A stretch of 64,000 bases of DNA from Rhizaria sp. SCN 62-66. Taxonomy: Eukaryota. Position numbers and translations under genes: made by a program. The notes under the pieces were generated by a model. It saw only the letters and a list, made by a program, of their open reading frames with translations, searched no databases and was not told the origin of the DNA. Positions within the stretch are counted from its first letter, which is position 1, and each line of letters begins with the position of its first letter. The stretch is from positions 62,001-126,000 of the forward strand of contig MEDY01000033.1 in assembly GCA_001724265.1 (NCBI GenBank). Direction: 5' to 3'. Of the stretch, positions 12,646-59,453 are shown in pieces.

Positions 12646-15600
12646 ATGGGAGGCAACGTCTCCTCATGCGGTTGCTCACAAACCAAAGTACGTCATCCCC
12701 TCACCACCCTAGCGTGTCCTAACATCATGCAGTCATCACATATGATGCTGAATCATGGAAATATTGAGCTTGTCAACAATCTACTGATGACTAAAATTCA
12801 CTATGCATTATTTACCCACCGATTTCTCCTCTTTGCTACAGCATGACATGATTGGCGTAACGCTGGCGTATGGCATTCGCGCCAGCTTCCAAGCTTACCC
12901 AGACCTCGCGCGATACGCTGTCTCTCGTGGTGAACGCAATGCTGTTGCCCGGCGCGCTCTTGAACTTGATCTCTAGCCAGGTGAAGCTGATCTCCCAGAA
13001 GGATTCGAGGATTTCAACGCTAATCAAGACTCCGCACAATCGTCATTCGGCACGACAACAGGAGCCGCCACAGGAGCAGCGCAAGGTGCAGGAGCAACGC
13101 CAGGAGCGAGAACAGTCGCGAGTCCTGTCGCCCCCGGTGGCGCAGCATCTCCGGTTGGTCTCTCTTCTCGCGGCGGCACAAAGCAGGGTTCCGGCGGCGC
13201 GGCTGCCGCGCTGTCTGTCGCTGCGACCGCAGGCAGCGGCAGCCACAGCCGCAGCGGCGGCGACAGCCAGGGTGAGGGCGACGACGTTGACGATGACGGC
13301 GATCGGCTGACCGAGGACTCGCTTTCGACGGTGCTTGTGCACACGCGCGATGGGCTCGACTACAGCGTATTTTCCCAGGACCACGACCACAACGACGACG
13401 ACGAAGACGAGGACGAGGATTACGACGATTACTACGACGATGATGACTACGATACCGATGCAAACGACGTTGTTGTGACCAGCACTGTTCCTGCGAACGC
13501 TGCTGGCAACGCCAGCGCTGACACTGCCGCTGGTGCTACAGGCGCCGGGACGGGTGATGCGGTTGGGGCGAGCACAAACAGCGCTGTCTCTGGTGCGACC
13601 AGTCCCGCCGTGTCCGAGCCCGCTGCGCGCACGCACCGCGCCCCGTCGATCTCGAAGAAGCAGCGCTCGTCGTTGGCGCTGCTGCAGCAGTCGCTGCCGC
13701 AGTCGCAGACGGCCTCACAGTCACAATCGCGGTCTCAGTCGCACCAGCCCTCGCCGTCGCCGCCCAAGACGCGGCCCTCGCAGCAGCAACAGCAAGTCGA
13801 CGAGCAGCAGTAGCAGGGCGACGACAAGCAGCAGATGCGCTCGCGCTCGCACTCGCGGTCACGGTCGCGCTCGCAGTCCGGCTCCGGCGTGACGCTCGCC
13901 GCGATGGGATCTGAGTCCGACGCCGCCGCTGGCGCTGCCAAGGACGGAAAGACGCGGACGCGGACCCGCTCTCGCGGCGACAGCATAGCGCGCCGCAACA
14001 GCGCCAGCCGTAGGTCGTCCACTGACGGCGACCGGGACATTGCCCGCGGCAGCGACGCCGGCCGGGAGCCAGACACCGCTGCGATCTTGGTCGACGAGAC
14101 CGAGGCTGCCGCGGAGGCCGCCGCTGTTGCTCGCCTTGCACTGGTGCCTGAAGAGGATGATTTCCTCAATAACAACAGCAACACTCATCACGATAACAGT
14201 AACAGTGATAACGCTACCGCGCAGAACACACGAGCTGACGACAGTAAAAAGGTCAGCACTAACGGCGATGCTGATAGCTGTGGCGATGATATCACAGCTT
14301 CTGCTGCTATGAACGCAAGTGCATCTAAGCCCACGGTCACGTTCTCGACCCCTTCTAAGGATTCGAAGCACCACCAGCAATCTCAGTCAGAGCACGTGTC
14401 CCCGCCGCACAAGTCTGGCGAGAGACGCAACCCTAAAGGGGTTCGCGTTAGCGCCTTGGACGAAGGCACGTTTATCCACATCACGACCGATGAGCCTAAC
14501 ACGTCGAAAACGACCACTGTCACCTTCACCAACAACAACAGCAACAGTAATAGTGTTACCGCCGATACCAACACCAACACTCTGTCGCCGCGCACAAGAG
14601 CTCGCACACTGGCTAACAGCTCTGCCGCTAACAGCAACAATAACAGCAGCGGCGGCAACGCGATGCAGACGGTCCCCAGTGCGCTGCTCGACGTTGACGA
14701 GCTCTTCGCGGACGCCGGTGCGCACACGCGCTTTCCGATCGAGTCCCTCTCCGTTACGCCGGTTGAGCTCGTCGTGCCGTCGCCGGACGACAGCGACAGC
14801 GGTGCCGGCGTGGGCTCAAAAACGACCGCGGACGCCGTTGGCAGCAACTCGAACCAGACCCCACACTTCGTCGGCGGCGCTAAGAAGTCCGCTCCGCCAG
14901 TAGACAGCAAGGACGTCGAGCTAGAGGTCGAAATGGTGCCCATGACGCGGCCTCCAGCGACCGGCGCCAAGCCTGCGAGGCCGATCACCAGCGGTAAGCA
15001 GAAGCAGCTTGTCGCTGTCGAGCGGCGCGCCCATACCACGGAGGTGTTGAGTTACCGCGGCGTGCTGAAGTCCTACGCGCCGCGGCTTATGCAGCGTATC
15101 CGCGGCCTCGAGGGCATCGCCGAGGCTGAGTACCGTCGGGCCCTGAGCGGCGATCCGGCCCCGTACATCTCGCTCAAGACAAACTCGCGGTCCGGAGAGC
15201 TCTTTTTTCTCACGGCGGATCGCAAGTACATCCTTAAGACGATCTCCGCGAGCGAGACGCGGCTGATGCTTCGGTACATCCTGGCGTACTACTTGCACCT
15301 GCGCACGTTTCCTTACTCGCTAGTGAACCGCGTCGTCGGCATGTACAAGCTCACGGTGCGGCATGACCGCAAGCAGTGTTGCGGTTACTCGCCCACCGAC
15401 GCCGCGGCCACGGCGGCCGAGCCGGGCAACGTCCGCGGCGGCCGCGGCAACGGCGCAGCGAGCAAGGCGCACTACATCGAGTGCTGCAACTGCTGCTGCG
15501 CGCAGTGCGGCGGCTGCGCGGGCGGGGGCTCGCGCAGTTCGCGCACGACTGTGTACCGCGTGATCGTGCTTAAGATGGCCTACCCGTCCGAGTGCAAGCT

Positions 15601-16837: not shown

Positions 16838-16872
<35 letters not shown>

Positions 16873-19142: not shown

Positions 19143-21077
19143 TCAATCCTGCTTCTTCGGTACTTGTCTCTTCACACGGCGCTTCACAAACGCAATTGCC
19201 GTAGGGGTGACAAAGGTGACCGCAATCACTGAGAGGGCGATATAGCACACTAGCACGGCAATCGCAGTGGAGTCACTCGTGTTCATCGTGTCGATCGCAA
19301 GGTTCACAGCACCAGTGAGCAAATTGGTGATCAAAAAGAATGATAACGGCGCGGAGTCGATCGCATTCACAGTCGCTCCAAGACCGGCGCCTCCAGCTTC
19401 CGCCATAGAAACCGTGTTTTCACGAAAGCCACGACTTGCGGCATCATTGCGGCTGCCTAACTTCGACTGGATCCAGCCGGGCACGTCGGCCGCCTCAACC
19501 GCAAGAGCAACTGTGAGCATGAGCGTTGCGAGCGCAATCTGCCACGCGACAAAGGCCGAATTTGCAAGCCTCCGTGAGACGTCTTGTGTTGTGTGCACAA
19601 GCACGGACGTTGCGAGCCAGGCAAGTGCACTGAAGCTGCCGATGATAATCGTGGCAGCAAGCGCGTTAGTCTTTGCAGAAGTCCGTTGTTGACTACAATT
19701 GTTAAGAGCAGCAGCCGCGTACAAAATACGACCAATTGGGACAGAGAGAAGCAAAATGGCAATATAGCCTGGTAACGATGCAATGCCTTCCTTGTTTGCA
19801 GTGAGCAAACCGACGCGTGGCGCGTTAAAGACCCAATCAGTCCCGTCAAAGGGGTTACTCAAACTGCTCGAGGAGAGTCTCAGAGGGTAAACAAGCCAGT
19901 ATTGATGCCCTGCCGTGATAGTGAGGCCAAGCAAAGCGCAGACCCACGCACGCGGGTGCGAGAGTGCCTGGGTGAGAACACGCTTCACGGCGCAACCAAG
20001 CGCTTTCGCGGACTGACAAGCCGTGTCGTTGCAACTGAGTTCAACCTCCTGGCAATACAAAGCAGCATCAAATTGGACGCTGCTTAACGCAGGGAGAAGC
20101 GCGTGCAAGAGCGCCGCGACGCCAAGGACAACGGCCAGCGTGAAAAAGAAGTTCCAGTGGACTCCGTATTCTGACGTGTGTACCTGGTAGTTGACGGAGG
20201 AGTTGCCGGCAATCCGCGCGAATCCGAGCACAGAGAGCAGGCCCGCGCTCTTGACGGCGGAGATTAGGCCGAGTGCAAGCCGGGACCGGAAAGAGGACGA
20301 GTTATTCGAGTCACCCGCAGCATGCTTGTGGTTGTTGTCGTTGTTGTTGGTGGTGGTGAACCCAGAGCGAGCTAATGGAGACACCAGCGCATTGACGACG
20401 ACAAACACGCCAACGCCGACGTCCATAAGTCCCGTGCCAAACGTCTCCGTCTTGGCAAAGCGGCGCGGGAAGGCATTGAAGTCGACGGCGAGGATGGCGA
20501 CGCCGGTGAGCAACAGAGCGCCCGCGCGGAGCCGGGTCGGCGCCAACAGCCTCCGCACGCCGGCGGCCGCGGGGGGCGGGGGGAGGCGCTCCGGGGCGAC
20601 GGGAAGCGCGGTGAGAAGGACCAGCGAGAGCAGAACGAGCCAAGCCTGGAGCGCGAGGAGCGCGGGAATGAAAGCAGGGTGCGTGCAAGCGAGGATGCCG
20701 GTGCCGGCGACTAGGGCGAAGTCGAACGCAGTCGCGAGCGCGGTCAGAAGCTTCCGAAGAGATGCACGAGAGGCAGAGGGATTAAGGTTCGCAAGAAATG
20801 CATTGATAAAAGTGGTAACTGCGTAGGAGAGAATCTGGCTAGTCCAGGTAGTCAGCTGAGAAGGGGGGGGGGGGGGGATTTATCTCTCTCTCTTTCTCTA
20901 AAAGGCCAGATATTAAGACATAGAGAGAACTGAAGAAAGAAAAAAGAACAAAAATCGATACTGCGCAAGACGTACAATAAAGGAAATTGCAACGAGAGTA
21001 ATCTCATGAATGCTTGTGCCGGAGTGGCCCGTCACAAATGCCTACTTGGCAGCCTTGACGGCATTGTTGTGCTGCAT
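19143..21077 (-). CDS. PIGW: GPI inositol acyltransferase PIG-W/GWT1; complement(join(19143..20855,20976..21077)), ~604 aa, one in-frame TAG
   Basis: N-terminus MQHNNAVKAAK*AFVTGHSGTSIHEI; motifs AILAVDFNAFPRRFAKTETFGTGLMDVGVG, SEYGVHWNFFFTL, ANKEGI, VSRRLAN and NLLTGAVN. One GTACGT intron. Ends TGA. Confidence 0.92.
20863..20877. repeat. G15 homopolymer (poly-C polypyrimidine tract of the PIG-W intron on the minus strand)
   Basis: 15 consecutive G, a few nt from the intron acceptor at 20856. Confidence 0.9.
21042..21044 (-). other. In-frame TAG at codon 12 of PIG-W (putative sense codon, Gln or Glu)
   Basis: Context AAG TAG GCA TTT GTG, at the E position of the KE(A/D)FV motif of PIG-W/Gwt1. 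Confidence 0.85.
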
Positions 21078-27549: not shown

Positions 27550-30500
27550 TTATTCCACAGTTTCCGTCGTAACTGTTGTAGCAACAGAATTGCCGTTGCC
27601 AGCAGTCACAGCGGCACTGTTGGTTCCGACAGAGTTTGACGGAAGTGAGTCACAGCGCACCCCTTTCTTTTTCCCTGCGGCTGCCGCCTCCGCATCAGCA
27701 GCAGCGACAGCGGCCGCCGCAGCCGCCTCCGTTTCTTCAAGCTCCACCGCGTGCCAAAACGCCCGGTTGAGCTCGACGTGCTTGCTGGCGAGCAAAGCGC
27801 CGGGGATCGCCTCGCCCAGCAGCTTGAACAGCGGCGCGACAAAAAAGTCAATGAAACCCTTCTGCGCTTTGGCCTTGACTGGCGCATCGCGGTTCATCAT
27901 CGGCGTCACTGGTAGCCCGAGAGCTTTTTCGCTGTCGCCCTGCAGATACCACTCGGCGATGATGCGGTCCGCCCACGCGCGGCACTGCGGCAGCCGCTTT
28001 GCCGGGTTCGAGACGTCTGCGGCGTGGATAATAGTCTGCACTGCCAGCGCGCGCGACGGTTTGTGCAGCGGGTCGATCCACGTCTTGTGCGTCAAGTGCG
28101 TGTCGAGCGACAGGCGCAGATCAGAGATTTGGCGCACATGCGCCTTCATATCAGTCGCCATGATTGCGTTGATAATGCACTCACGTGCCTCTTTGCGCTG
28201 CGCAAAGGTGAAATGCTCGAAGATATTCATATCACTCTGCCGCAACAGGCGGAACGTCTCTGCGCAGTGGTAGTTCTCAAGCACCGCATTGTCGTTGTAC
28301 TGCAGCGCAAGATCGGACTCGGAGTCGATCAGGAACTGGTTTGTCACGCCGGGATGGCCCACATCGTGCGCGGCCGCAGCGATGTACAGACAGAGGATGT
28401 CCATCGGCGTGAGTGCGTCAGAAATGGGCGGGATCACGGTCTCGCACTTGCAGCCAACGGAGACGCCTTTCGCCGCTGGCATAGCTGTATCGTCAGCGCC
28501 AGCGGCGCTCGCGCAGGTGCGCTCATCAGCCCTGGGGCTGCCGTGCTGACACAGAGCAACGTGGTGCCATGGCGACAGGTCAAGCGAATCTTCTTCAGCC
28601 GCAGCTGCGGTAGCTGCGGCGGCAGCCGCTGCAGCGGCCGCCGCCGCAGCAGCAGCCATGGTCGTGACCGTGTTCGCAGCCGCACCAGCACCGGGAAGCC
28701 CCGGTGTCGCAGTGCGAGAAAACGCTCCGCCCCAGCCGCGGCCGTGGCTGTTGGTGCTATAGCGTGGCGAGCGCGACAGCGGGGTGAACGCGGCCGAGGC
28801 GGCGGCGCTCGCGGCCGCTGCGCTGGTGGAAGAAAGTGGGAGGATGGGCGTTGCGCAGCGGGGAAGAGTCAGCACGCCCGGTTGGTGATGTTGCAGTTGA
28901 TGCTGTTGAGGAAGCTGGTGCGCGTGAAAGCCGGTCTGTGAACGCGACAGCGTTGGTGGAAGGCCAAAGGATGCCGCTCTTGTAAACATGACTGCGCCTG
29001 CCGACTCAGCCGTCGCCGCTACAACCCCGGGCGCGAACGCGTTGGCCGCGGCGATTCCGGAGCAAGTGCCGTTGCAGTTCGCGTTGTCAGTGCAGCCTTC
29101 AGAGCAGCACGCCCAGCCCATTTCGGCGGAGAGTGCGCGCCGGTGCAGAGCGTCGGCCTCGGCCAGGACGGTCTTCATTGCAGCCGCGGATTGCCTCGCG
29201 GTCGAGTGGATGAGCGTAAACACGGTCTGCACCACATCGGCGGCGTGGATCGAGTTGTGGTATGGGTTGTCCAAGTACTTATCCTCGAGTGCAGTTGCGA
29301 ATTTGATAAAGCGGGTCGGAGAAATGCTCCACTGCGTGTAAAGTCCCTGGCTGTGAGCAACGTGGGCCAACACCGCGGTCAGCGGACGGCCATGGGTTGC
29401 AGCTGCAATGGCAAAAACATCGAAGTCCCAGTCGTACATCGACCCCCAAATCGTGGAAAGTTCGGGGTGTTCAGAAACAAAAGCGGGAACTGTGAGCAGC
29501 GGGGAAAGTCCTGCTAAAACAGCGTTAGATGTAAGTGCAATGGGGAACTTAGAGCAGTTCTCAGTATTCACCTCGGTTTCTGCAGTAGCAGTTGCTGCAG
29601 CCGTCGTTGTTAAAGTCGTCGTATCGGTATCCAATGCCGACTATGAACTGCGACTGGAGTCAAGTGGTGACAACGCATGCGCGTGCGCGCTGAGCACGTC
29701 ATGCACCGACTCCTGAGGAGACAGCGTAGCCGGCGGCACTGTCGCTGCGCTCTCGGTCGGGCCCTTGGGGCTTGCAGCAGTAACCGCGGCGGAGTCTGTG
29801 CTTGACGCGACAGCGGCAAACTGCGTTTGTGACCGAAACAACAACAGAGTCGCAGGAGCTGGTAACTTCGCGGTCGACTCGAGTACCGGTGACTGGCCTG
29901 TAGACTGCGCGTACGCATTTGAACCTAGCACTCTCGCCCGTACCTGTTGGTGAGAGCCAGTGCCGCTGCTGTTAGCCCCCATGGCCGCGATGGATGAGAG
30001 AGCAGACCCAGGCAGCAGCGCGCGCGGCGGCGTCGCGTAGCTGGTCGAGGGCGAGTTGACTGTCGATGACGCCGCAGACGACGAGGCCGACACCGATGTC
30101 AGCGCGAGGACTGCGGCCGCCGCGGCGGAGGCTGAGGGCCGCGGCAACGGGTGGCGCGACGGCTGGTACGGGTGCAGCGGCGGAGGCAGCAGGCTCGGCA
30201 CGTGCACCGCATGCGCCGTGCCGACATTGTGAGTGTGCCCGGCAGGCGAGGTGTGCGCGGAGAGGACGCGACTGTTGACGGCAAACTGCACTGCGTTCGA
30301 TGGCGCAGAGGGGGAGAAGATCGGCGAGGGTGCGACGCTGCGCGAGTTCAGCGGCACGTGGACAGCTGTGTTAAGGGGCAACACCGCCCCGGGGCCGGGC
30401 CCGCTGTCAGCCACGTTTGCAGTCGACGGGTAGGACGATACGTTCGGAGACTGCGGCATTACCAGCCCGAGGCCAGTGGCGGAACCGCTGCTAACTCCGG

Positions 30501-33500
30501 TGTAGCCACGATTAGTACTCGCTGCAGAAAGCGCGGACTCAGGCATTGCGCTGTGGGAGCTCATTTTTACACCGTACCCGTTGCCGTGCAAATTTGCACC
30601 AGATCGGTAGCTGTAGTGGTGACCGAAGTTCCCGCTGCTGCGCCGCATGACCACCGACGGCCCCGCCGACTGCGGTGTAGTAAAAAAGGCGCCGCTAAAC
30701 GATGCGTTCGACTGCTGCTGAATCGGTTGCAGGGAGACACCGTTATTGTTAATGCTGTTCCGGGTACCAATCAAGGGTGATCCCGGACTGAAGTTTGACA
30801 CGGATGCGGTCGCCGCGGCGGATGCGGAGCCCGCTGTGGCCGACGCAATACTAGACCTCTGCGGCGTGCCATACGGCGCCGATGCACCGGCCTCATTGAC
30901 TGTAAGGGGCTCAGTGGGCGACTCGCAGTGCTGAGCGTTGCTGCCGCTGTCCGCAGACTCGGGGCTCGAGTTCGCATTACTGGTGGTGGTCACGTTTGCA
31001 AGGCTGGCGATGGCGGCGGCCGCGGGCGCCGCGCATGTCGGCGTCGGCGTGTCCAGACTGGACGTGACCTCCGTAGGAGACACGACGAGGCGGGATAGAG
31101 CCACCGGCGGCACGGGGCCGGCAGCGCTACTGCTAGCTGTGGTCCCGTTAGCGTCCGCACCTGCATTCGCAGGAGTGCTGGCAAGAGCAACGGACAAACC
31201 CGGGTCGCTGAGCCTGGCGGTGCTCATCGCAGCACTCCGCGGTCGCGCCGTGTCCTGCACCGTCACGCCAGCAAACCCCGCCGCAGACCCCGCAGCAGCG
31301 GCCGCAGCGGCAGCGGTGGCGGCGGCGGCAAACAACAACGCGTTATGCACGTTGGCGGTGTGGGTACTCGGCGCGGGGGTGGCGCCGCGGAGCTCTGTGG
31401 GCGTGAGCACGCGGTGGAACGGGGACAGCGCGTGTGGCGGCGGCGTGGGCGCGGCAGAGGGGACGCCGACCGCGTGGAGCCGGCTGGCGCTCGCCAGCTG
31501 CGCCCAGTGCAGCGCGTTGTGGAAATGCTGCTGCTGGTAGTGCATCTGGCTTGCAGCGGCGTTGGACGCGGCGGCAGAGGTTGGAGTGGTCGTTGCGGAC
31601 GTGGCTAAGGTGGACGCGCGCGGTAGCTGCTGGTCGAGTCTGGGCGCAGATCCAGCCGTGTTAAAGCTATTGCGGCTGCCTGTGTAAACCGGGTAGCCCT
31701 GACTCTGGCTTGGGTGCTGAGGCACAGTACCGGCGGCAGGCGCGGTAGAGCCACTCTGGCTCTTGCTGTGACTCAGTGCTAGTCCGCCTAGTCCAAGGCT
31801 GTGACCGTGGACGGGGCCAGAGCCCAGACCGACACCGAGCCCGTGAGCCTGCGCAAGCTGTCCTGGGCTAAAGCCAACGTTTGTAGACGGAGACATTGTG
31901 TTCGCCGCGAAAGTGTTTACGTTTGTTGTGTTCGATACGGCGGTCGGTGAACTCGATGGCGTGGCAGAGAAACCAGACGTTGCGTTCGCAAATGTCGGTG
32001 ACAAATGCTTCGGTGACAGCGATGAGTAAGGCAAAGCAGCAGCAGCAGCGGTGTGGAGGTGCAGGTGGAACGGCTTGTTTTGGGCAGCGGGCCCATAGGG
32101 CACAGCACTGCCCTCGTCTTGGTTGCCCATTGTGGTTGCGGATGCAGCAGTCGTTGCAGGCCCGGCAGCCACGCCAGTAGCGTTGAAGTCGTTGTAGCTC
32201 GCACCTACGTTGTTTACGTCCACTGCAACTGCTTGTTGCAACGCGGTAGGATTGAGCGGTGACACAACCGCATTGCGCGCTGCCACTACACTGCAAGCTG
32301 AGTGTGGCGGTGTGTTGACTGTCGAGCCCGGAGCAGTCGTCGTCTTGGACCTCAGCAAGCCAGCGCCGCCAGAGTACACAGCGACGCCGTCGTGCGGCCC
32401 TGTGCTCGTGGCGGTGCGGGGAATGTCGCTGCCACCGTTGTGCGCGAAGTCGGGCGGACTGCTGTCGCACGATCGCCGCTGCTGGTTCACTGCGGCCGGG
32501 TTGTAAGGCTTGTGGTCGGTGATGACGGCGTCGCCATGTCCGCTCTTGTTCAAGCTGGAGTGTGCCTGGACGCTCGATAGTGCAAGTTCATATCCGCTAT
32601 CGTAAACAAGCGGGTTCACCAGCTCGGGCGGTTCCAGCGCGGCCGCGACGGGGCCCGCGGTCACGAGGTGCAGCGCCATCGGCGACGGACTGAGGATCGG
32701 CGTCGCCGTGCCCACCAGAGCGTTCGCATTCGCACTCACGGTGAGCACAACGGCAGGCGGGCGGCTGGGGTCGTTGATGGCAACATTAGCGCTGATGCTG
32801 TTGCCGCTGCTGCTGGCAGAAGAGAAGCTCGAGTCTGCAACCGAGCAGCTGTCGACCGTGAGAGGATACGGCTGCCCGCCTGGCGGAAGCGACAACAAGT
32901 GCCGTGAGCTGTCGTCGGCAACGGCAACCGTCGCATTAGCACCCGAGTTATTGGCGTTGTTATGAGCGTTAAGGGCGTCAAGTGTGCCAGAAGGAAGCGA
33001 GGGCGAGGACACAAAGAGCAACGGGGTTAAAACAGGTGTACCCGTTACGACAGCTGTGGAAGCTACAGTTGTTGCTGCCGTCGGTGCGTTAATCACGTTG
33101 GTGGCGCTTTCATGGGTGTTCTTGCTAGAAATAGCGTTCGCAGCGTCGTTTAACTCGTGTGCAGTTGGGAATGTGAAGTGTTTTGGTCGCTGCGGTGGTA
33201 ACATCGCAAAACTAGAGCTCCGACTGTGCGATGTCTTAACATGTTCGTAGGGCTATGACGGTACCTGAGCCTGAGCCTGTGCTTGTGCCAACGCCTGCTG
33301 CTGCCGAATGTGCCTCCTCATAGCGTACGCGTTTGCGGCAGCTGTGATATCAGCCTCGGATAGAGCCATCGAAGCAATCCAGCCAGCGACGGCGCGCGAC
33401 TCCGCGTTGTTGCCCCGACGCACGCGGCTGCTGATAGCGGCGGCGAGGCGTTGCTGCTCAGTGAGGTCAACGCCATCAGCTGCGTTGCTAGCGGGATTGG

Positions 33501-36500
33501 CAGTAGACGCAACAGCACTGTCAAGGCTAGCATTAATAGCTTCGATGTTATTACTCGTGTCGCTCTCAATAAGAACGTCATCGTGGTTGCTACTAACAGC
33601 ATCATCATGCGTGTCGTTGTTGCCGTCGTCGTCGTCATCATCGTCAGGCGCAAAACACTGTTCAGCAAGCGTCTCGCTAACTTGCGAACGGAACAGCTCG
33701 TGTGGTGACTGCAGCAAGTACGGCACCGGTGCGGGGAGATAGGGCGAAGGTGAGACCTCTAAGAACCTCGGGTGCCGGTCAAAGTGTTCCGAATTCCTAC
33801 TTGCCATCATGGATGAGCTCAGCGAAACTGTGACATCAGGATGAGCAAAGTCCGCATTAGGGTACGAGATGTTGTTACTACTGACATTGCTCATGTTGTG
33901 ATCGTAATGGGGGTTTTCGGGACCCGAAAGAGACAGGCAAACGCTCGTATTCGCAGGAACCGCATCAACAACAACAGCGTCCTTTGTGCTCAACGTGGCG
34001 TCTGCGGCACTGCTATGTGTGTTCGAACTACCCGTACCAGTATTTCTCCGAGGACTGGTGTTGCGGCTATTGTTACTCAGGTTCGCTCTTGTGATGGTGG
34101 CGAGAATCGTCATTGGTTCAACCGGGGCAGCAGCGGCGGCGGCGTCTGTCTCGGAGTTGCCTGCAGTCATCATAGCCCCGCTGTCGCTCACGCTTGCGCC
34201 GCTGTCACCGCCGCTGACGTAGGCAGCGCTCACACTCCTCGCGCTGGCGTTGCTGCCGCTACTGCTGTTGCTGTTGCTGCTGCCGTGGGTGTGATTGCTC
34301 GCGGAAGATGAACTGTCAGCAGCAACAATCGGAGTAAGCCCGCCCCCGCGGCAGTTTGCACCGGCAGTCAAGACGACGGCGGGTGCGGGTGCAGGGCCGG
34401 GAGACATCAGCGACTCCAGCTGCATCCGCCGCGACATCGGCTCCTGTTGGCCGCGGCTGCTGTCGCTGTGTTCGTCCAACGTTGTCAGCGACAATACAGG
34501 CGATTGCGGCGAGTGCGACTGCTGCTGTTGAAACACACGGACACGCACAGGTACACCATTGCTCCGCTGTTGCGTGTCTGGCAGAAACAATGTCTGGTCG
34601 TTGCCGTCACCGTCCGTGGTGTTCGTATTTGCATCAATGTTGGAGTGAAGCTGCGCGTAATACTGCGGCGGCGACATCGCGGTGCGGCGGCGCAAATTAA
34701 GCTGCATTTGCAGCTGCGGCGGCGAGTAGCCAATCTCTTCTTCGCTGTCAATACCGACGCCGGACCCCGCCGTGCCAGGACTGGAGCCGGCGGCGGAGCT
34801 GACAACGCGACCGCTGTGGAACGGACACGGGGCCGCGTTAGCGGCGTTCGCCCGCAGACGGCTGTTGTCGAAGTCGACCGCGGGGGACGCAAGGATAGTC
34901 ATGTTCGCGCCGTTTAAGCTCGTCAAAGTCACCTGGTCGCCGGGGCTGTGCTCATCCTGCTCCAAGATGTAGTGTTGGTCGTCACCGAGGCTCGCAGCCA
35001 CCGTCAGGCCGACGCCGTCCGCCTGTGTCTTAGCGCCCGCGTCCGCGTTGCCCCCCACAGCCGCGGTTCCGCTGTCACAGTGGCTGTGCGGGTGGTGCGT
35101 GTAGGCGAGCGAGCGCACCGTCATCGTCGATGACAGCGGGCCGATGGTAGTCGCGCAGTCGCCGTCGCTGCCGATGGCGCTGTCGGCGCTACTCCCGGCG
35201 TTTCCGGCGTTGTTGCCGTGGTTGATGAGAGCAAGGGTGCGGCGGCATGTGCACGGGCAAGTGCACTGCAGCCCCGCGTTGTTGCTGCCGCCACCGGCGT
35301 TGCTAGCGCTGCCGGAGTTGGCGGACGTGCGGAGCGCTGCAAAAGGCGGTGACAGAGAGAGCACCGACGCAGGCGGCGCAATGCTAATCAGCGTGCGGTC
35401 GGAGCCAACGGGGCTGCTGCCGAACATTGACGGCGCGGGGCTGAAGCCCACGGTCACGCCGCCCTGGTGCGCCGCGGCGTCGCTGGTCGTCGCCGCGGGA
35501 CCGGGGGCAGTAGCGGGCACAGTCAGGCTCCCGGCGTTCGGGCGCAGGATGCCGCTGTTGCTACCACTGGCATTCGCGGTGATGTTGTCCGCGTTAGAGC
35601 CGATGAGTGCGTTGCTGGTGGGAATCAGCACCTGCAAGCCGGCCGTAATGGGGTTTGCAGTCGTGCGCGTGCGCGTCATTGGCGTTACACGCGGGGTCGT
35701 AGTCGCTGCAGCCGCGTCGGTGAACGTTGACGGAGAAGCGCCGTTGTTGTTAGCGCCGCAAGTCGCCGTGTCAGTGTCAGCAACATTGGTATTGTTTGAC
35801 GCGGATTTGTTGGGACTCGCACTCGCGCTTGCACTAGAGCTCGCGCCCGTGCTGAACTCGCTGTCTGCGGAGCTGCAGTTGTTATGGCTGTGAGACACAA
35901 ACCCTATGTTGCTCATAAAACTGCTCCGGTTGCTCCGGCTCTGCGTTTGGCTGCCGTGGCTCTGCCGAGCGTACGCCGTGTTCGAATTGGTTGCGCCGGT
36001 ATTGTGATTACTATTGCCATTGGTTGTGGCCGTCGGGGGACGGTAACCGTGACGAGGGCAGCTTGGACTGTACAGAAGGACCACCGCCGTCGTCCCCGCA
36101 CCAGCGCCAGCTGGCGCGCCGGCACCAGCGGCGGCAGCAGCTCCGGCGGCGTTGACGTCCGTGACCCCGGTGTTTTCGGCCGTCAATCCGGGGCGGTTGA
36201 GCGCAGGCGGGGAGACGCCGACCACGGAGGCGGGTCCCGGGGTTGACGCCGGCGCATGCAGGCGGCCGTGCGCGGAGGAGTAGTAGTGCGCGGACTGGCT
36301 ATGGGAAAATGGGGACGGGAAGCGCGCGCCTGAGGACGACGAAGACGAGAGTAGCGATGAGGACGATGATGAGAACGACGGCATGCGCGTGTGGTGGGGC
36401 AGGATGAGGTCGTTGCGGTACGAAACGTCGTCGCTCATCGCGTTGTTCGTGTTTTTGATGTTGACACGGTCCTCCACACCGCCATTGTCGTCGTCGTGAT

Positions 36501-39500
36501 GACCGTTGTTGTTGTTGCTCGTGTCGGGGGAACCGACAACGACGGTCTCAGCCTGGGCAGCGGCGGTGTTGACATTCGTGGTAATCACGTTGCTGTTGTA
36601 CATCACGTTGGTCCTGCTCCCGCTGCCACCGCTGTTGTTCAAGTAAGAGTCCGCGGTGTAGCGCTTGCTCCGGTTCCTGGTCAGAGTCGCGGCCGCAGTC
36701 AGCGTCGTCTTGGTCAGCGCGCCGTTCGCGGCCTCAGCACACGCAGTAGGCAGCGCGCCGATCGGCGGCGAAACCGCAACAGCAGGAATGTTAGCGTCCG
36801 GAGTGAGGGGACCAGGGTTGACCTGAGTCGCGTTGTCCCCGGCACCAACATCGCTAGCAAACCCCTGTCTTGGCGTCGCGCCGGCGCTGCCGGCAAAGTC
36901 CCCGCTGGCATTGAGACTGTTGCCGTTGGCACCCGCACTGTAGCCCTCGTCCTCGTCGTCCTCGGCCTCGCCAGTCGACCCCGTGCGCATGTACGGCGGC
37001 TGCAGGCGGCGCGGCTTGCCGACGTTGGCGACACTGAAGCTGCCGAGCTGCTGCAGCAACGCGTGTCGGTCCACGCTCCGCTTGCTCGAGCTCTTCTTGC
37101 CGGCGCCGCTGCTCTTGCCGCTGCCGCTATTGTTGCTGTTATTATCGAAGAGGTCCTGGGGCGGCGAGCTGAGCACGCTATCGGCGACTGTGCTGAAGCT
37201 GTTGCGCGGACTGCCCCGGTAAGGGGGATGCGCCCTCGACGGCACGACGATGATCGCGCTGTGTCGTGGCCGCGCGCTCATCGTGGCACCACCGCCAACA
37301 GTAGCCGTCCCTACATTTGTGGGAGAGGTCGGCGTCGCAGCTGCGGCGGTGGCTGTTCTCGGCAAGCCAGACGCAGTCACCGGTGACGCCGCCACACCGG
37401 CCAAGCTCACGGTAACGCCCTTGTCCGTGCCCGCAAGTGCGCTGATAACGACGCCCGACGTTGCAGCAGGTGAGACCAATGCGGCCGCGTTCTTCGCGTT
37501 GGCAGCACCAGCCCCATTCTGATTAAGCGCGTCAGCGGCGTAGCTGGGGTTATAACTGTGGTTATGCGACAGCTGAGTATGCGCCTGCATCATCGCGTGG
37601 TTGTGGCTGTGGCCGCGGTGGCCGTGGGCGGCCACGGGGGCGGAGCCGCAGCTTGCGTCAGAGTCACTGCAGCAGTCGCTCTCGTCATCGTCGTCATCTT
37701 CGTTGTCGAGCGCTCTATCGTCAGAGCTATCGCTTTCGCTGCCGCGGCGATACGTGCCGGCAACGCCCATACCGGTGTCAGCACAGAGGTTGAAACCAGC
37801 GCAGGCGCTGGCGCGAACAAGACCCGCAAGGGCGGCGCCGGTGGCCCCAGTGCCATCAGTGCCAATGCGAACGCGGTTGCGGGTGGCGCGCGGGTTTGCG
37901 TGCTCGCCGTCGCTGGCCCCCACCGCACTGGCCACGCAGCTGTGCAGCCCTCGGGCGCTGTGACCGCAGTCGCTGTGCAGCACGATGTCCCGCGCGCTGT
38001 CGAGGCCGCTGATGTATCCGCTGGCAAACCCGCTGTGAGAGCCGCCCGTGACATCCGGCGTGATGCCCGGTGTGATTCCCGGTGTGGTGCCAGGCGTGAT
38101 GTCGCTGGCCAGACCGAGGCTGCTCTGCGGCGCGTCGTGGTCGTGCGACGGGCCCGCCGCGTGTCTGCTCGGCTGCGTGCTGTGGGCGCCGCCGACGCTG
38201 CTGGCGGCGAGCGGCGCGACGCTGGCGCTGCCGCACACGGCGTCCACGCTGGGAACGGCGCCGGTGGTGGTGCTGGCAACGGCCCCGGCGATTGCGACTA
38301 CGCCGGGTGCCGCGCCTGCGCCGGTGAGAGCGTTCGCGCCGGTACGGCCGTCGGTGCCGGAGACTGTGACGATGCCGGTGGTGTAGCTGGAGTTGGTGCT
38401 CGTGGCACTGCTAACCGCGGGCTGTGCGAAGGCGGTGGGGCGGTGGAGGATCGCGAGGGAGACTGGCCCTGTCATGCTCAGGCCGCAGTGGGCGTCGCCG
38501 CTGTCGGTCGCGTTGTTGTTGTTGTTGTTGTTGGGAGTATTGTTGATGTGAGGATTAGCAATGAGTGTGCTGTTGTTGTGAGGAGTAGGAGTTGTGTCAT
38601 TCACGTCATCGTCCTCGTAATGCGTATCGTCCTCGTAATGCGTCCCGATGCGCGGTGCGAACGCCGTAAAGTGGCCGTGGAACGCGCCGAAACTGCCGAT
38701 ATTGTTCATGTAGCTACCATTAAAGCTGCTACCGTTACTGTAGTTGACGCAGTCCTGGGCGTTCATGCTCGTGTTAGCGGTGCTACTAGCCAGGTACTTG
38801 TTGATCGAGCTCAGAGACAGTGTCGACGCCGACATCGACACAAACGACATCATGCCGGTGACATCCGACTTGGTGCTCAGGTCGGCGGGCGTGCTCAGGA
38901 GGCCCCGGCTGTCGTCGTAGTCGAAGCCGCGCGCGCCGCCGCTGTCGTGCGCAGCACTAGCGCACCCGCTCGTAACGGCGTTGGGACCTGAGCGCAACGG
39001 GGAGTGCGCGTGCACCGACTCCGTGTCCGTCACTGCGGGCCCCGCGGACGAGTTATCGCCGGCTGCACTGGCACGTGACGCCGCCCCTGCTGTCGTCGTC
39101 GAGAGAGTGGGCGCGGGCGCGTTCGTGGATGCTGCAGTTATAGTGCCGGTCGTCGCTGTTGATGCGAGAGAAACGGCACCGCCGGAGGAGTCAGCGGGAA
39201 GTGACGGAAAGAGCTCGGTGGCGCCCGCAGATGAAGCATCAGCGCTAATAGACCCGGCTCCAGCGATGGACTTTCTGGTGCTTGATACGGTGCTATGGGA
39301 GTTGTCAGAGGCGACCATTGCGGCAGACCTGAGGAGCAACGGCCCCACAGTAGAGTCAGCGGCGCCCAAACCTTCATCAACGCCTGATAAGGCGGAACCT
39401 TTGTAGCAAACAGTGGCATGTGATGCGGTCAACACTGTGGTAGCTGCGTCGCAAGGGACAGAAATGGCCTGAGCGAGACGGGATGAAAAGGGGGGCACGT

Positions 39501-39660
39501 GTTTTCCTTGCCCCGAGATATCTTCCTGTAACTCGACATCCCTGGTCGACACATGACCTTCAGTTTGCGCTAAGGGACGTCCAAATGTAGCTGAAGATAG
39601 GTGGTGTCTTTCATGCGGATCTTGGAGAGACGCCAGGTGATTAGCGGCCGGGACTGACAT
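27550..39660 (-). CDS. Giant class I 3',5'-cyclic-nucleotide phosphodiesterase (~4036 aa if two TAGs are sense); catalytic domain at the C-terminus
   Basis: PDEase motifs WDFDVF, PYHNSIHAADV, HDVGHPG, LENYH, ATDM, HAADVSNP, EWYLQGD and QKGFIDF in 27550..29450. ORFs 33253..39660, 29641..33204 and 27550..29634 are in one frame, interrupted only by single TAGs. Ends TAA. Confidence 0.8.
29641..29643 (-). other. In-frame TAG in the PDE gene (putative sense codon)
   Basis: Context AGT TCA TAG TCG GCA TTG GAT; the frame continues directly into the catalytic-domain ORF. Confidence 0.75.
33253..33255 (-). other. In-frame TAG in the PDE gene (putative sense codon)
   Basis: Context QAQAQVPS*PYEHVKTSHSRSSSFAM; 16 open codons link it to the ATG at 33204. 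Confidence 0.75.
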
Positions 39661-40505
39661 TGGGAGTGTCGCGATTGGAAAAGTCGATCTCCAAGGCCAA
39701 CAACTCGAATTCTAATGACAGCGCAACGGCAACCGTGTTTTTGGCGTTTACCTACAATGTAAACGATAAAGAACAAAAACACCAATAGGAAAAGTGATGA
39801 CTTCAACAATGTTGGCGCATTTGACGTGGTAATCTCTAGAAAACTATTCTGCTGAGGCGTCCTTAAGAGAGTCCAACTCTAACTGCTCTGTGAGTTGTGA
39901 TCCAATAGAAATCTGTGCACATCCGACAGAGTCGCGTGTTAACATATGCAAACGTATAACACTTACGCACTCTAATTATAAGACATAATATAATCATGCT
40001 GCGTCCAGCTTATCCTCGTTAACTTGATAGATTCACTCAACCTCGATCAACCACTCCTTCTTGGCCCCTCTCTCTGGCTCAACGCCCGAACCCAAGCCGC
40101 AAGCCGCTCAAAAAGTGACGGCTGGTTGGGCTAACTCATGAGAGCTCACGGTCCTTCGGGCTGTCTCAATGAGCGGCCCGGTGTCTTTGAGGGCAACGTG
40201 TGAGACGTAGCAACAGAAAGACAATATTTGGGTAATTGTTACGCCATGTATAACTTGTTTAGTATTTGATGCCAAATCATCTTTTCTATTGACGTTGGTC
40301 CGACCTCAAAGTGCATGATCTTCGGTCGCAGCTTCACTCAGCTGCTAACACCACCCAGCGGGATACCTCCCATCGCACGCACAGCCACAGCTCAACTTCT
40401 TTGACAACTGACATCGGTCTTAGGCTAAACTTCATGATCTTACCTAACGAATTATGACTTCTTCTTTCTATTTTCCCTTGTCCTCCCCCCTTCACAGACC
40501 CTCTG

Positions 40506-54194: not shown

Positions 54195-57100
54195 TTACCC
54201 CCTGCGCTGCTGCACTGCTGCGATGGTGGCCGCCGTGGCAGCCATCTGTTTCTGCTCCTTCTGCTGCAGCTGGATCACGCGCTGCTTCAACTGCTGCACA
54301 GCCGTCTGCAGCTGCTTCATGATCCCGCTCTGCTGCTTGTTGGCCTGCCGCAGCGTCGCCGCCTCCGACTGCACGGCCTGCCGCGCCGCAGTCACAGCCG
54401 CGAGTCCGCGCTCCGAGACCTCGAGCTTGTTCAGCGCCTCGGCCTTGTGCGCCTTCTCCTGGTTTAACAGCGTGTTGAGCGTCGTCGCCGACTTGAGCGC
54501 CATGGCGAGCTTGCCCTCGCAGACGACGAGTTTTTGCGACGTCTTGCGCTCTTTGACCTCGATGGGGCGGTAAATGAGGTCGATTTCGTCCTGCAGCCGC
54601 CCCGCGCGCGCCGTCTCCGCGGCCAGTTTGTCCGCCATCTCCTCCAGCCGCACCTGCAGCGCCGCCGCGGCCGCGCGCCGCTCTTCGAGCTGCGTCTCGG
54701 TGCGCTTATGCTCGCGCTCGGCCGCCTCGGCGCGCTCTTGCAGCCGGCCTTCGCGCACGGCGCTGGCCTCGAGCTTCTTGTGCAGCTCCTTGGCCTCGGC
54801 CTCGCCCTCCTTAACAGCGTCCGTGAGCGACGCAACCTCGCCCTCGAGCCGGATGCGCACGGCCTCAACCTCGCCTAGCTTGGCGTTGACGCTCTCAACC
54901 TGGTTCTCGAGCGAGCGCTCACGGTGACGGAACACCGCGCCCGCCTCCTGGTGCTCCGCGCGGAGCCCGTCGTTGGCCGCCTTGAGAGACGAGATCGTGC
55001 TATCGCGAGAGCGCATTGTCTCCTTGAGCGCGTCCAGGGCCGTGTTGACGGCAGAAAGTTCGGCCTCGATCGTCGCGCTGTGAGCCTTGAGAGCGGTCAG
55101 CTTCGCGTCGGTGTCGTGCAGCGTGGCAGAAGTCTCATTCAGCCGGGCGTCGGTGCTGCGCAGCGAGGAAGCCAGCGACGCGCGTTCCGTGTCGGCCGCG
55201 GCAAGCGCATGGCGCAGGGTTTCGCGTTCAGAGTCTAAACGCTCTGTGTCGGTGATGGCGGATGTCAGGCGGGACTCGAACTCAAGGCGCTAAAGTGTAC
55301 GCAACAATGAAAGAATATAGACACACACAATATCAAACAGGATGAGCGAAAACCAAGTGAAAACAATTTCGTCGCATACATGTGATGTTTAGAATCATTC
55401 AAATCTTACAAAAGCAATGTAACTTAGAAACGTACCGAAGTGTTGAGCTGCGTGCGGAGCCGCTCGAGCTCCGCATCGACGAGGTCGTTCTTGCTCACGG
55501 CCCGGCGCTCGCCGTCCTGCGCCGCCGTCAGCGCGGTCCGCAGCGAGTCGATCTCGGAGCTCAACGACGCCTTCTCGGCCAGCAGCGCCTTGGTCGCGGC
55601 CTCGAGCGTCGCCGTGGCCTCGGCGCGCGCCGCAGCTTCGGCCGTCAGGCGCGCGAGGGCGTCCTGGTGCACGGCCGAGGCGGACTGGACAGAGCTGAGC
55701 TTGGACAGCAGCGCGGTCAACGCGGCGCGGAGCTCGCCGTTGGAAGTGAAGAGGGCGTCATAGTCGGCTGTTTGTGACATCGCTGTGGATGAACAAGAAG
55801 GAACAAGGTACGAACAGAAATGCGTGAAAATAAGCATCACGGAATATGTTTTGAGTCATCTCAAAGCTTGAAAAAACACATCTCGTGTAGAAAAAAAAAA
55901 CATTGCCAAAAAAATATGCAACGAGAAGAAGAACGTACCTGAGCGCATATCGCCGGTCGCGACCGAGGCCAGCGGCGCCGCCGCGGCCACGGCGCCGGCC
56001 CTGGTACCGACACCGCTCTTGAGCCCGATCCCGGCCCCGTACGGCACGCCCAGCGGCGCCGTGCGCGCGGCGGCGATGATCGGGGCCAGCGCGGCGGCCG
56101 AGGCGGAGGGCCGCAGCAGCGCGAGCGAGCCTGCGTTGGTATTGTTGGCGTTGGCGACTGAGAGTTGGGACATCGACGGGACGAGCGAGAGCGTTGACTG
56201 CGCCGGGAGCAGCAGGGACGGCGACGACACGTTGCTCATCATAACCCCGTTGCCGTAGCTGCTGTGGGAGTTGTTGTTCACGAGCGGCGGCAGCAGCGCC
56301 GACTGAGACTGCACTGCGGCCAACGCAGAGCCCAGGCCAGTGCGCTCCAGCTCAACCATGCTCCCGTTGTACGGATTGTGACCGTGAGCAGAGTAACCGT
56401 GGGCAGGATACTGCTCGAAGACGCCGCTCGCGCTCGCAGCCAGCGCGCTGCCCACGGTCACACCGCTGATCACGGTCACGATCCCGCCGTGCTTGCCGCG
56501 CGCGCTCAGCGCACCAGCGCCCTTAAACGACGCCAGGTGACCGTGAGCACCACTGGGGACGCCACGCGCACTGTGACTCGCCACATTCGTGGTGTTGCCG
56601 AGATCGAGCGTGGAGAGGGCGTGAATTGACCGTGAGCTTGCGAGGTCTTTGCGAATCGCGGCCGCAGCAGCTGGAGTCAGCTGCAAGTCACCACCCGCAT
56701 TGCCCGGCATCGCAGCAGTGGTGCTACTACTGATGCTACTGCTATTGTTTTGGCGGGAAATTGAAGGCAGGATCACCTTGTCTTCGTCACCAATGACGCT
56801 CGCGGCGGCGGCGCGACGTCGGGCAGTGGCGGCGGCAGCAGCGGCGGCGGTAGCAGCGTCGGCCTCGGCAAACGACTCGAATCCGTCCGCACGCAGCGCC
56901 CGCTGCTGCTGCTGTTGATACTGCTGCTGTTGCTGTTGTTCGGTCAGCAAAGCCTGTGACTGCGAAGGGACGATGATGCGGTCGCCGAGCGTGGCCGCAT
57001 CCAGCGTGATATGGGACGTGTTGACGCGAGCAGCAGGCACAAAGCGGGAGCCAGAGCCAGGACTTGCGCCAAGCGCAGCAGTGCTGGTCCTGGAGCCAGT

Positions 57101-58561: not shown

Positions 58562-59453
58562 AGCGACAGGAGCGGAGCAGCGGGTGCTGTGTTCTTCCTT
58601 GCTTGTTGTTGTGACTTGGGTGGTTTCGTGCGACTGAAACGAGAACAAAATAGGCAGTACCAAAATGAGACCTCCGTGCATAGAAAAGATAAATCTGCAA
58701 CAAACTACTCGCGGTTCGAATTAACAGAAAATTAAATAAAATATCAATAATGTTTTGAATCGATCGTGATGCACCCTCATTTCTACTTCGCGAGAGCTGT
58801 TTCTGTCTTGCTGTGGGTCGTGGGAGCGGTTCGTAAAAATGGTTGCTTTTTCGTGACCGGCCGGTGGCTGTTTTTGAAAGTAAGGGCCGCAGTTCGAACG
58901 AAAACGCCTCGAGGCGCGCTCGCGATTGCTCCCTGTGATCGACGCATCGATATATAACACTCCAGGGTTGGTGGTATAGCAAGTAGAGATCTTTAACTAT
59001 TTGGGAATTTATATGTGTGACCTAGATCGCCCAGGATCATGGCGCACCAGAGGCTGTGTATCTGGCAATGGTTCGCGAGCCAACAACGGTCTTCACGTAT
59101 CTCGATTTTGTCCAACACGGACTTCCTCAACCTCGTTATGAATTCGTACAGCCAGCATACTGAATAACTGTGCTTCTAGATTGCTCTGCGAAAGTTTTAT
59201 CCGCTCACTCGTTGATATTCCCTCTCCCTTTTTGCTTGCTTTGATTCGACCTCGTGCCAACTCCTCGGCCGCCCGGCATCCGAACAATTCCTCATATCTG
59301 CCCTCGATTTCGTCCACACTGCGTCTCAACAATAGACGCACTAAGAGCACGAGCGAGCGTAATAGCTGTCTGTTCCGACCCTTTGTGCAAATCCCCCCAC
59401 ATCTTCTCTTGTTGAACCCCAAGTCAGTAGAGAACCCCCAGTAAGACACCACC

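What the first reader, a model, noticed from the sequence alone, without database searches (positions are those of the whole stretch)
20976..21077. TAG at codon 12 of PIG-W, inside the conserved N-terminal motif
Exon 1 reads MQHNNAVKAAK*AFVTGHSGTSIHEI, matching the PIG-W/Gwt1 N-terminus as I recall it (KEAFVS..NGT...EI; KEDFVTGLNGGSITEI). Under the standard code the next in-frame ATG comes only at GLMDVGVG, which would delete the N-terminal helices and the AILAVDF-FPRRFAKTE motif from an otherwise intact GPI-pathway gene. This is the only TAG at an alignable position, and it points to Glu or Gln.
Basis: partly seen in the sequence, partly recalled or inferred. Interest (0 to 1): 0.85.

Follow-up and report, generated by a model that had tools for sequence, protein, structure and literature searches.

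The report
In-frame TAG read as sense codon
An essential GPI-anchor gene of an uncultured wastewater protist carries a TAG "stop" at a position where nearly all other organisms have glutamate, and the surrounding genes show that this organism most likely reads TAG as an amino acid rather than as a stop.

Summary
On the minus strand, exon 1 (21077..20976) of a PIG-W/GWT1 gene has TAG as codon 12 (21044..21042). A 120-nt GTACGT...AG intron joins it to exon 2 (20855..19143, stop TGA).

An intronless metagenomic relative (L001) has the same start position and a colinear N-terminus. It has GAG (Glu) where the window has TAG. This rules out an upstream exon spliced onto the AG of the TAG.

In 203 orthologues with a residue at that column, 183 have Glu, 5 Gln and 2 Leu.

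Three further in-frame TAGs lie in two other genes. One is a 4053-codon phosphodiesterase frame with 0 TAA, 0 TGA and 2 TAG. Of 13 apparent gene ends, 10 are TAA, 3 TGA and 0 TAG.

DNA contigs from three other public runs, two of which may be one data set, show the same TAG. No RNA contig spans it.

A CCT4 tree puts the organism in one clade with a protist sequence from the Lygus hesperus transcriptome. That sequence is presumably the rhizarian exLh, which is known to read UAG as Leu.

Best reading: UAG is a rare sense codon and UAA/UGA are stops. The residue is probably Glu, resting on one alignable site. Gln and Leu remain possible. No tRNA or eRF1 could be examined.

The parts
21042..21044 (-). 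In-frame TAG, codon 12 of PIG-W/GWT1, at the near-invariant Glu of the N-terminal K-E-x-F-V motif
   Evidence: column count; relative L001 has GAG here; same letters in DNA contigs of X2/X3 and X4
20976..21077 (-). Exon 1 of PIG-W (34 codons; ATG at 21077..21075, which is the first in-frame ATG after an upstream stop)
   Evidence: colinear with the N-terminus of the intronless relative L001
20856..20975 (-). Intron of 120 nt, GTACGT...ctcAG, holding a (GA)n run and a C15 run. It differs in length between samples.
   Evidence: the frame is closed by TAA if unspliced; junction SFI|LTTWTSQ is colinear with L001 SFIVSAWTAQ; X4 has 59 letters in place of 22 at 20877..20900
19143..20855 (-). Exon 2 of PIG-W (570 codons plus TGA stop), with the GWT1 domain and the AILAVDFNAFPRRFAKTE motif
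   Evidence: polyA-RNA contigs of X5 lie on 19740-19972, 20039-20293 and 20438-20838
13811..13813 (+). In-frame TAG inside a CAG-rich run (QQQQQVDEQQ#QGDDKQQ) of the PIP5K gene's N-terminal region
   Evidence: GC3 in frame is 0.92 around it; no ATG in the 278 codons upstream (translation); no donor-like site within 600 nt upstream
33253..33255 (-). In-frame TAG in the giant phosphodiesterase ORF (AQAQAQVPS#PYEHVK)
29641..29643 (-). In-frame TAG in the giant phosphodiesterase ORF (DSSRSS#SALDTD), about 70 codons before the catalytic domain region
27550..39711 (-). Phosphodiesterase ORF of 4053 codons, ending in TAA, with 0 TAA, 0 TGA and 2 TAG in frame. PDEase_I lies at the C-terminus.
   Evidence: the other five frames hold 71-174 stops each; Pfam PF00233 at 240.8 bits
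59849..61201 (+). Main exon of CCT4 (TCP-1 delta), used to place the organism. The TAG at 59846 just before it is an intron acceptor, not a sense codon.

Best explanation
The window comes from an uncultured, GC-rich protist found in wastewater and bioreactor metagenomes. This organism reads UAG as a rare sense codon and keeps UAA (preferred) and UGA as terminators. The PIG-W mRNA starts at the ATG at 21077 and is translated through codon 12 (UAG) into a full-length GlcN-PI acyltransferase. The residue inserted is most likely Glu. That would make the GAG-to-TAG change relative to its nearest relative a silent one. The inferred mechanism, not shown here, is a tRNA with anticodon CUA (for Glu, one anticodon change from tRNA-Glu CUC) together with an eRF1 that no longer recognises UAG. 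I put 'UAG is translated' at about 0.85. I put the whole statement including Glu at about 0.55.
For: Shown:
(1) The TAG lies in coding sequence. L001, an intronless relative (44% identity over exon 2), has the same start position and reads MSLSDAAKAAKEAFVTGHAGTSINEIT against the window's MQHNNAVKAAK#AFVTGHSGTSIHEIT. There are synonymous differences on both sides, and the two are colinear across the window's intron.
(2) Under the standard code the next Met would remove 177 residues. These residues are conserved with L001 and carry the FPRRFAKTE motif.
(3) The column is Glu in 183 of 203 orthologues, with Q 5, K 4, I 4 and L 2.
(4) Three more in-frame TAGs sit in two other genes. The phosphodiesterase frame has 0 TAA, 0 TGA and 2 TAG in 4053 codons, against 71-174 stops in each other frame.
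(5) Of 13 apparent gene ends, 10 are TAA, 3 TGA and 0 TAG.
(6) The TAG is present in DNA contigs of other runs dated 2016/2017 and 2025.
(7) The organism groups (SH-aLRT 100) with a Lygus hesperus transcriptome protein that is not insect-like. That transcriptome holds the rhizarian exLh, which uses UAG as a sense codon with UAA/UGA as stops (PMC5304391, sections 5 and 6 read).
Against: The Glu assignment rests on one alignable site. A local-context score over the four TAG sites slightly favours Gln (Q +3.8, E +1.9, L +0.8 bits), driven by the TAG inside a CAG run. The nearest lineage with a known code, exLh, reads UAG as Leu.

UAG is very rare here: 4 in 14,893 scored codons, and none in CCT4, DDX27, ABCA or the RtcB exons. 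In exLh there were 384 in 71 genes.

No RNA contig covers the TAG or the exon junction. No tRNA gene or Rfam family is in the window. No genome is held, so tRNA-CUA, eRF1 and a possible second PIG-W copy are untested. Zero TAG among 13 gene ends is weak on its own, given the strong TAA preference. The other three TAGs were not checked in other samples.
Confidence: 0.55

Rival explanations
1. UAG is a sense codon but encodes Gln, the commonest outcome of UAG or UAR reassignment. The PIG-W site would then be a tolerated Glu-to-Gln replacement.
For: The TAG at 13811 sits inside a CAG/CAA run, one transition away from CAG. The context score is highest for Q. Q occurs at the PIG-W column in 5 of 203 orthologues, two of them with a KAAKQ motif. 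UAG-only-to-Gln codes are known in Iotanema, Protocruzia, Hartmannula and Trochilia (PMC5304391 abstract; PMC11687900 abstract and passages).
Against: The column is Glu in 183 of 203 orthologues, and the closest relative has GAG.
Confidence: 0.2
2. UAG encodes Leu, inherited from a common ancestor shared with the rhizarian exLh. The PIG-W TAG would then be a Glu-to-Leu missense change that happens to be tolerated.
For: In the CCT4 tree the window, three unnamed relatives and the Lygus-TSA protein with three further unnamed relatives form one clade with SH-aLRT 100. The pattern of UAG as sense with UAA much more common than UGA as stops is the same as in exLh, which had 56 UAA and 15 UGA.
Against: Leu is found at the column in 2 of 203 orthologues. 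In exLh, 82 of 86 hyperconserved UAG positions were Leu, so a hyperconserved Glu site is unexpected. None of the roughly 1,200 Leu positions scored uses TAG. The identity of P0249 with exLh is an inference, because the supplementary gene list is closed.
Confidence: 0.08
3. UAG has no dedicated tRNA. A weakened eRF1 lets near-cognate tRNAs read it at low efficiency, giving a mixed or leaky product.
For: UAG is very rare and is absent from the highly biased genes. K and Q occur at the column at low frequency.
Against: An essential single-copy pathway gene and a 4053-codon ORF with two TAGs would be made very inefficiently. No direct evidence bears on this either way.
Confidence: 0.08
4. The standard code applies. 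The TAG is a nonsense mutation, so this is a pseudogene or a null allele, or the protein starts downstream.
For: No second copy could be excluded. The public gene model P0001 avoids the TAG.
Against: The rest of the 604-codon frame is intact and conserved. The TAG persists in samples dated 2016/2017 and 2025. Three other in-frame stops in two other genes are also all TAG, with no TAA, TGA or frameshift. P0001's start is not in the window. It lacks the conserved motif and presumably lies in a variant intron allele.
Confidence: 0.07
5. The TAG is removed from the mRNA, either by an upstream exon spliced to its AG or by a small intron.
For: Five of six other ORF-edge TAGs looked at are acceptors behind pyrimidine tracts.
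Against: The 11 codons before the TAG are homologous to the N-terminus of L001, including the start codon and KAAK. There is no pyrimidine tract (45%) and no donor-like site within 600 nt upstream.
Confidence: 0.02

Closest known systems
Rhizarian exLh (Sainouroidea) nuclear code: UAG=Leu, UAA/UGA stops (Panek et al. 2017, PMC5304391)
   Same: Only UAG is a sense codon. UAA is the main terminator and UGA the minor one. The window's CCT4 falls in one clade with the non-insect CCT4 from the Lygus hesperus transcriptome.
   Different: The one alignable TAG here sits at a Glu column (183/203), not a Leu column (2/203). UAG is about 0.27 per 1000 codons here, against several per gene in exLh. This is genomic DNA at about 60% GC with spliceosomal introns, whereas exLh is known from transcripts only.
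UAG-only-to-Gln codes (Iotanema spirale, Protocruzia tuzeti, Hartmannula sinica, Trochilia petrani)
   Same: UAG is sense and UAA is retained as a stop. Usage of UAG is low (about 8% of Gln codons in Iotanema). One TAG here lies in a CAG run.
   Different: The lineages are unrelated (a fornicate and ciliates). The conserved site here points to Glu rather than Gln.
Glu-decoding stop codons: UAR=Glu in peritrich ciliates and Blastocrithidia; UAG=Glu with UAA=Lys in an uncultured ciliate (PMC11687900 passages, PMC12153298 abstract listing)
   Same: UAG is read as Glu, if the PIG-W site is representative.
   Different: In those codes UAA is also reassigned. Here UAA ends 10 of 13 genes. In the passages read, no code with UAG=Glu and both UAA and UGA kept as stops is listed.
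PIG-W / Gwt1 (GlcN-PI inositol acyltransferase; Pfam PF06423; yeast structure 8xij)
   Same: Full-length domain match, the N-terminal K-E-x-F-V-(S/T)-G/N motif and the FPRRFAKTE motif.
   Different: The Glu codon of the motif is TAG. There are long low-complexity inserts. The public model of this protein (P0001) has a wrong N-terminus.

Membership tests
PIG-W / GWT1 (PF06423) | Pfam GWT1 match above the gathering score | tested here: met
   302.2 bits against a cut-off of 29.6 for exon 2. Exon 1 matches profile positions 2-25.
PIG-W / GWT1 (PF06423) | Conserved N-terminal K-E-x-F-V motif and the (A)VDF..FPRRxAKTE motif | tested here: met
   Alignments. The Glu position is the TAG.
PIG-W / GWT1 (PF06423) | Acyltransferase activity on GlcN-PI | not testable with these tools
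   No assay is possible. A sequence relative has a solved structure, 8xij.
Nuclear code with UAG as sense and UAA/UGA as stops | In-frame UAG inside otherwise intact, conserved coding sequence of several genes | tested here: met
   4 TAGs in 3 genes. TAGs that are intron acceptors were set aside.
Nuclear code with UAG as sense and UAA/UGA as stops | UAG not used as a terminator; UAA and UGA are used | tested here: met
   10 TAA, 3 TGA and 0 TAG of 13 apparent gene ends. The sample is small.
Nuclear code with UAG as sense and UAA/UGA as stops | UAG present in the mature mRNA | tested here: inconclusive
   PolyA-RNA contigs of X5 cover only parts of exon 2 and none reaches the TAG.
Nuclear code with UAG as sense and UAA/UGA as stops | Cognate tRNA with anticodon CUA; altered eRF1 | not testable with these tools
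   No tRNA and no Rfam match in the window. No genome is held.
exLh code (UAG=Leu) | UAG falls at conserved Leu positions | tested here: not met
   At the single alignable site, Leu is 2/203 and Glu 183/203. Only one site could be tested.
exLh code (UAG=Leu) | Phylogenetic membership of the exLh lineage | tested here: inconclusive
   A CCT4 clade with SH-aLRT 100 includes the Lygus-TSA protein P0249. That P0249 is exLh is inferred. There is no 18S in the window, and the supplements are closed.
UAG=Gln codes | UAG falls at conserved Gln positions | tested here: not met
   Gln is 5/203 at the alignable site. The CAG-run context of the TAG at 13811 is compatible with Gln.
UAG=Glu | UAG falls at conserved Glu positions | tested here: met
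   Glu is 183/203, and the closest relative has GAG. Only one site could be tested.

The most novel reading that the evidence does not exclude
Within one small clade of uncultured rhizarians (the exLh relatives), UAG stopped being a terminator once and was then captured by different amino acids: Leu in the insect-dwelling exLh and Glu in this wastewater organism. This would be the first nuclear code with UAG=Glu while both UAA and UGA stay stops. It would also be the first case outside ciliates of close relatives giving the same freed stop codon different meanings.
Probability: 0.35. Interest if true: 0.85.

Novelty: new variant of a known kind. Interest (0 to 1): 0.65.

Why it matters
Nuclear codes in which UAG and UAA have different fates are few. 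In the papers read here they are one rhizarian, one fornicate, a green alga and some ciliates.

A genomic contig from a relative of the rhizarian exLh gives what the 2017 authors said was missing: DNA in which the tRNA-CUA and eRF1 genes could be found once the rest of the bin is examined.

If the residue is Glu, the same freed codon has taken two meanings in one clade. That bears directly on how stop codons are captured.

Practically, standard-code gene calling on this organism's contigs gives wrong proteins. The public PIG-W model lacks the true N-terminus, and the 4053-codon phosphodiesterase would be cut in three.

Tried and rejected
- Amoeboaphelidium idea. My first guess was the aphelid. 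The papers read cite it as UAR=Gln, but TAA ends most genes here, so I dropped it.
- Whole genome. None is held, so there was no search for tRNA-CUA, eRF1 or a second PIG-W copy.
- RNA evidence. The polyA run X5 has contigs on exon 2 only, and none bridges the intron or the TAG. This says nothing for or against the TAG being in the mRNA.
- Codon-bias scoring of TAG flanks. It was weak in the low-complexity regions. It was useful only for showing that most of the 103 stop-free TAG contexts lie in non-coding frames of real genes.
- TAGs rejected as sense codons. 15755, 59846, 55292, 47241, 4294 and 4657 are intron acceptors. 39714 and 9663 lie upstream of starts. 12974 is uncertain, with GC3 of 0.36 just downstream.
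- A GTGCGT 168 nt before the TAG at 33255. I considered it as a donor and rejected it, because it lies in GC-rich, protein-like text.
- Taxonomy from DDX27. This gave only unnamed relatives and a position outside the sampled stramenopiles, fungi and plants.
- Rosculus vilicus, a sainouroid with a genome, has 37.7% GC against about 60% here, so the window is not that species.
- Rfam found nothing in the window.
- Literature searches for other rhizarian or wastewater code variants found none in the held library.
- The representative search with the L001 protein found no closer relative with an N-terminus. It only widened the column count.

Full report
**1. The observation**

The gene lies on the minus strand. 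Window 21077..20976 translates as MQHNNAVKAAK*AFVTGHSGTSIHEITLVAISFI, and the stop is TAG at 21044..21042.

The ATG at 21077 is the first in-frame ATG after an upstream stop. Exon 1 ends at 20976 and is followed by GTACGT. If the frame is read on unspliced, it closes at a TAA.

The 120-nt intron ends ...ctcAG at 20856. Exon 2 (20855..19143) is a 570-codon frame ending in TGA. It matches Pfam GWT1 at 302 bits. Exon 1, with the TAG read as a residue, matches positions 2-25 of the same profile.

The first Met after the TAG is in GLMDVGVG, residue 144 of exon 2.

**2. Is the gene model right?**

A scan of metagenome contigs with an alignment of exon 2 and its best relative gave locus L001. This is a 2063-nt contig with 44% identity over query residues 1-543.

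L001 encodes an intronless PIG-W whose product begins MSLSDAAKAAKEAFVTGHAGTSINEITGVACSFIVSAWTAQL. Three things follow:
- The start codon is at the same distance from the motif as in the window.
- The residues before the TAG (K-A-A-K) are conserved, with synonymous third-position differences.
- The junction SFI|LTTWTSQ of the window is colinear with SFIVSAWTAQ.

The 33 bases before the TAG are therefore coding sequence, not the end of an intron. The TAG also has no pyrimidine tract (45% against 70-100% at five of six acceptor TAGs; the sixth, at 47241, is also 45%). It has no donor-like hexamer within 600 nt upstream.

Where the window has TAG, L001 has GAG.

The public protein for this gene (P0001, 589 aa) starts with a peptide that is not encoded in the window. 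Run X4 carries 59 letters in place of 22 inside the intron. P0001 is therefore probably a standard-code ORF that starts inside a variant intron allele. It lacks the conserved motif.

**3. Is the TAG real DNA?**

Logan contigs of X2/X3 (possibly one data set filed twice) and of X4 (a different study, 2025) cover the TAG with no difference.

RNA contigs of a polyA metatranscriptome (X5) lie on three parts of exon 2 but do not reach the intron or exon 1. Expression across the TAG is therefore not shown.

**4. The column**

The first set was 118 database proteins plus L001. Glu stands at the TAG column in 94, Lys in 2 and Gln in 1. The other 22 have no N-terminus. P0001 (self) and P0002 (the same gene as L001) were left out.

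After adding the representatives found with the L001 protein, there were 252 proteins plus L001. The count is:

| Residue | Count |
|---|---|
| Glu | 183 |
| Gln | 5 |
| Lys | 4 |
| Ile | 4 |
| Leu | 2 |
| Asn, Trp, Val, Ala, Asp | 1 each |
| Gap, or motif not aligned | 50 |

A few of the odd rows look misaligned. Glu is therefore 183 of 203.

**5. The rest of the window**

With TAG read as sense, the frame 27550..39747 (minus) opens to 4066 codons and ends in TAA.

From 39711 down it has 0 TAA, 0 TGA and 2 TAG in 4053 codons, while each of the other five frames has 71-174 stops. Its C-terminus is a PDEase_I domain. Read by the standard code, it would be three abutting same-frame ORFs. The last would start inside the catalytic region.

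A third TAG, at 13811, lies in a stretch with in-frame GC3 of 0.92. It follows 278 codons without any ATG, in the N-terminal part of a PIP5K gene.

Other TAGs at ORF edges are not sense codons. 15755, 59846, 55292, 47241, 4294 and 4657 are intron acceptors. 39714 and 9663 lie upstream of starts. 12974 is left open.

In 14,893 codons of 18 ORF segments there are 4 TAGs. None is in CCT4, DDX27, ABCA or the RtcB exons.

Apparent gene ends are 10 TAA, 3 TGA and 0 TAG of 13. ORFs 55856..58720 and 55424..55855 turned out to be exons of one gene.

**6. Which organism?**

The runs that hold the stretch are labelled bioreactor, wastewater and activated-sludge metagenomes.

DDX27 has only unnamed close relatives (87, 74, 69 and 65% identity). 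It falls outside the sampled stramenopiles, fungi and plants.

CCT4 also has unnamed relatives at 84-74% identity. Its best named hit, at 69%, is a UniRef entry from Lygus hesperus. A true insect (Ladona) scores 59% and Spongospora 64%.

In a quick ML tree, the window, three unnamed proteins and the Lygus entry with three more unnamed proteins form a clade with SH-aLRT 100. This clade is far from the animals.

The Lygus transcriptome is where Panek et al. found the sainouroid rhizarian exLh (PMC5304391; abstract and sections 5, 6, 8 and 9 read). That organism reads UAG as Leu and ends genes with UAA (56) or UGA (15).

The link between P0249 and exLh is my inference. The supplementary gene list is closed.

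**7. Which residue?**

- The PIG-W column favours Glu over Gln by about 37 to 1, and over Leu by about 90 to 1.
- A naive context score over the four sites gives Q +3.8, K +2.5, E +1.9 and L +0.8 bits. The Gln signal comes entirely from the CAG run at 13811.
- Prior knowledge favours Gln, the most frequent reassignment. Because of the exLh relation, it also favours Leu.

I weighed these together and allowed for the chance that one site misleads. My estimates, given that UAG is translated, are Glu about 0.6-0.65, Gln about 0.2-0.25 and Leu about 0.1.

**8. Mechanism**

Shown: in-frame TAGs in intact genes, no TAG terminators, and TAA/TGA terminators.

Inferred from what is established for such codes (PMC5304391, section 9): a tRNA with anticodon CUA, which cannot read UAA, and an eRF1 with weakened UAG recognition. 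Neither could be looked for here.

The rarity of UAG and its absence from strongly biased genes fits either a recent or an inefficiently decoded codon. The same was noted for ribosomal protein genes of exLh.

**9. Novelty**

According to the passages read in PMC11687900, UAG-only reassignments are known to three amino acids:
- Leu in exLh and in TARA ciliates.
- Gln in Iotanema, Protocruzia, Hartmannula and Trochilia.
- Ser in Scotinosphaera.

UAG=Glu is reported only together with UAA=Lys in one ciliate, or as UAR=Glu. My searches of the held library found no further rhizarian variant and none from wastewater eukaryotes.

At the least, this is a new genomic member of the exLh-type code. If the residue is Glu, it is a new variant.

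Noticed in passing
window 27550-39747 (-): A single 4066-codon frame. Most of it is Ala/Ser/Thr/Asn-rich low-complexity sequence, with a cyclic-nucleotide phosphodiesterase domain only in the last ~300 residues. Standard-code gene calling would cut it into three proteins.
   Followed up: partly
window 12977-18728 (+): A PIP5K gene spread over two long ORFs. The kinase domain is split (Pfam positions 7-112 and 184-287) by long low-complexity inserts. At least one intron ends at the TAG at 15755. Where the gene starts, and whether the TAG at 12974 is coding, was not settled.
   Followed up: partly
window 20856-20975 (-): The PIG-W intron holds a (GA)n run and a C15 run, and it differs in length between samples. 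X4 has 59 letters in place of 22. The public protein model P0001 seems to start inside that variant intron.
   Followed up: partly
window 54195-58720 (-): ORFs 55856..58720, 55424..55855 and 54195..55289 are exons of one long coiled-coil gene. One intron is 55938..55782, GTACGT...ccacAG. A second intron ends at the TAG at 55292. An in-frame TGA lies inside the first intron.
   Followed up: partly
window 47005-48954 (-) and 59445-61201 (+): RtcB tRNA ligase and CCT4 genes, both with short introns. Three of the introns read (PIG-W, CCT4 and the coiled-coil gene) begin GTACGT and RtcB has a like site, and most of the other ORF-edge TAGs are acceptors. Acceptor TAGs must be kept apart from sense TAGs in this genome.
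   Followed up: partly
window 21642-22607 (-): A 321-codon ORF ending in TAA, with no Pfam match and no coding bias above the other frames, in a region of about 50% GC next to PIG-W. Its nature is unknown.
   Followed up: no
window 26001-28000 and 44001-46000: Two AT-rich stretches (GC 0.43-0.44 against about 0.6 elsewhere) without long ORFs. They were not examined.
   Followed up: no
P0121, P0123, P0124, P0127 and P0242-P0248 (database proteins): DDX27 and CCT4 both have a series of unnamed metagenomic relatives at 65-87% identity. The organism therefore belongs to a clade with several uncultured members in public metagenomes. Their codon usage could not be seen because their contigs could not be fetched.
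   Followed up: no
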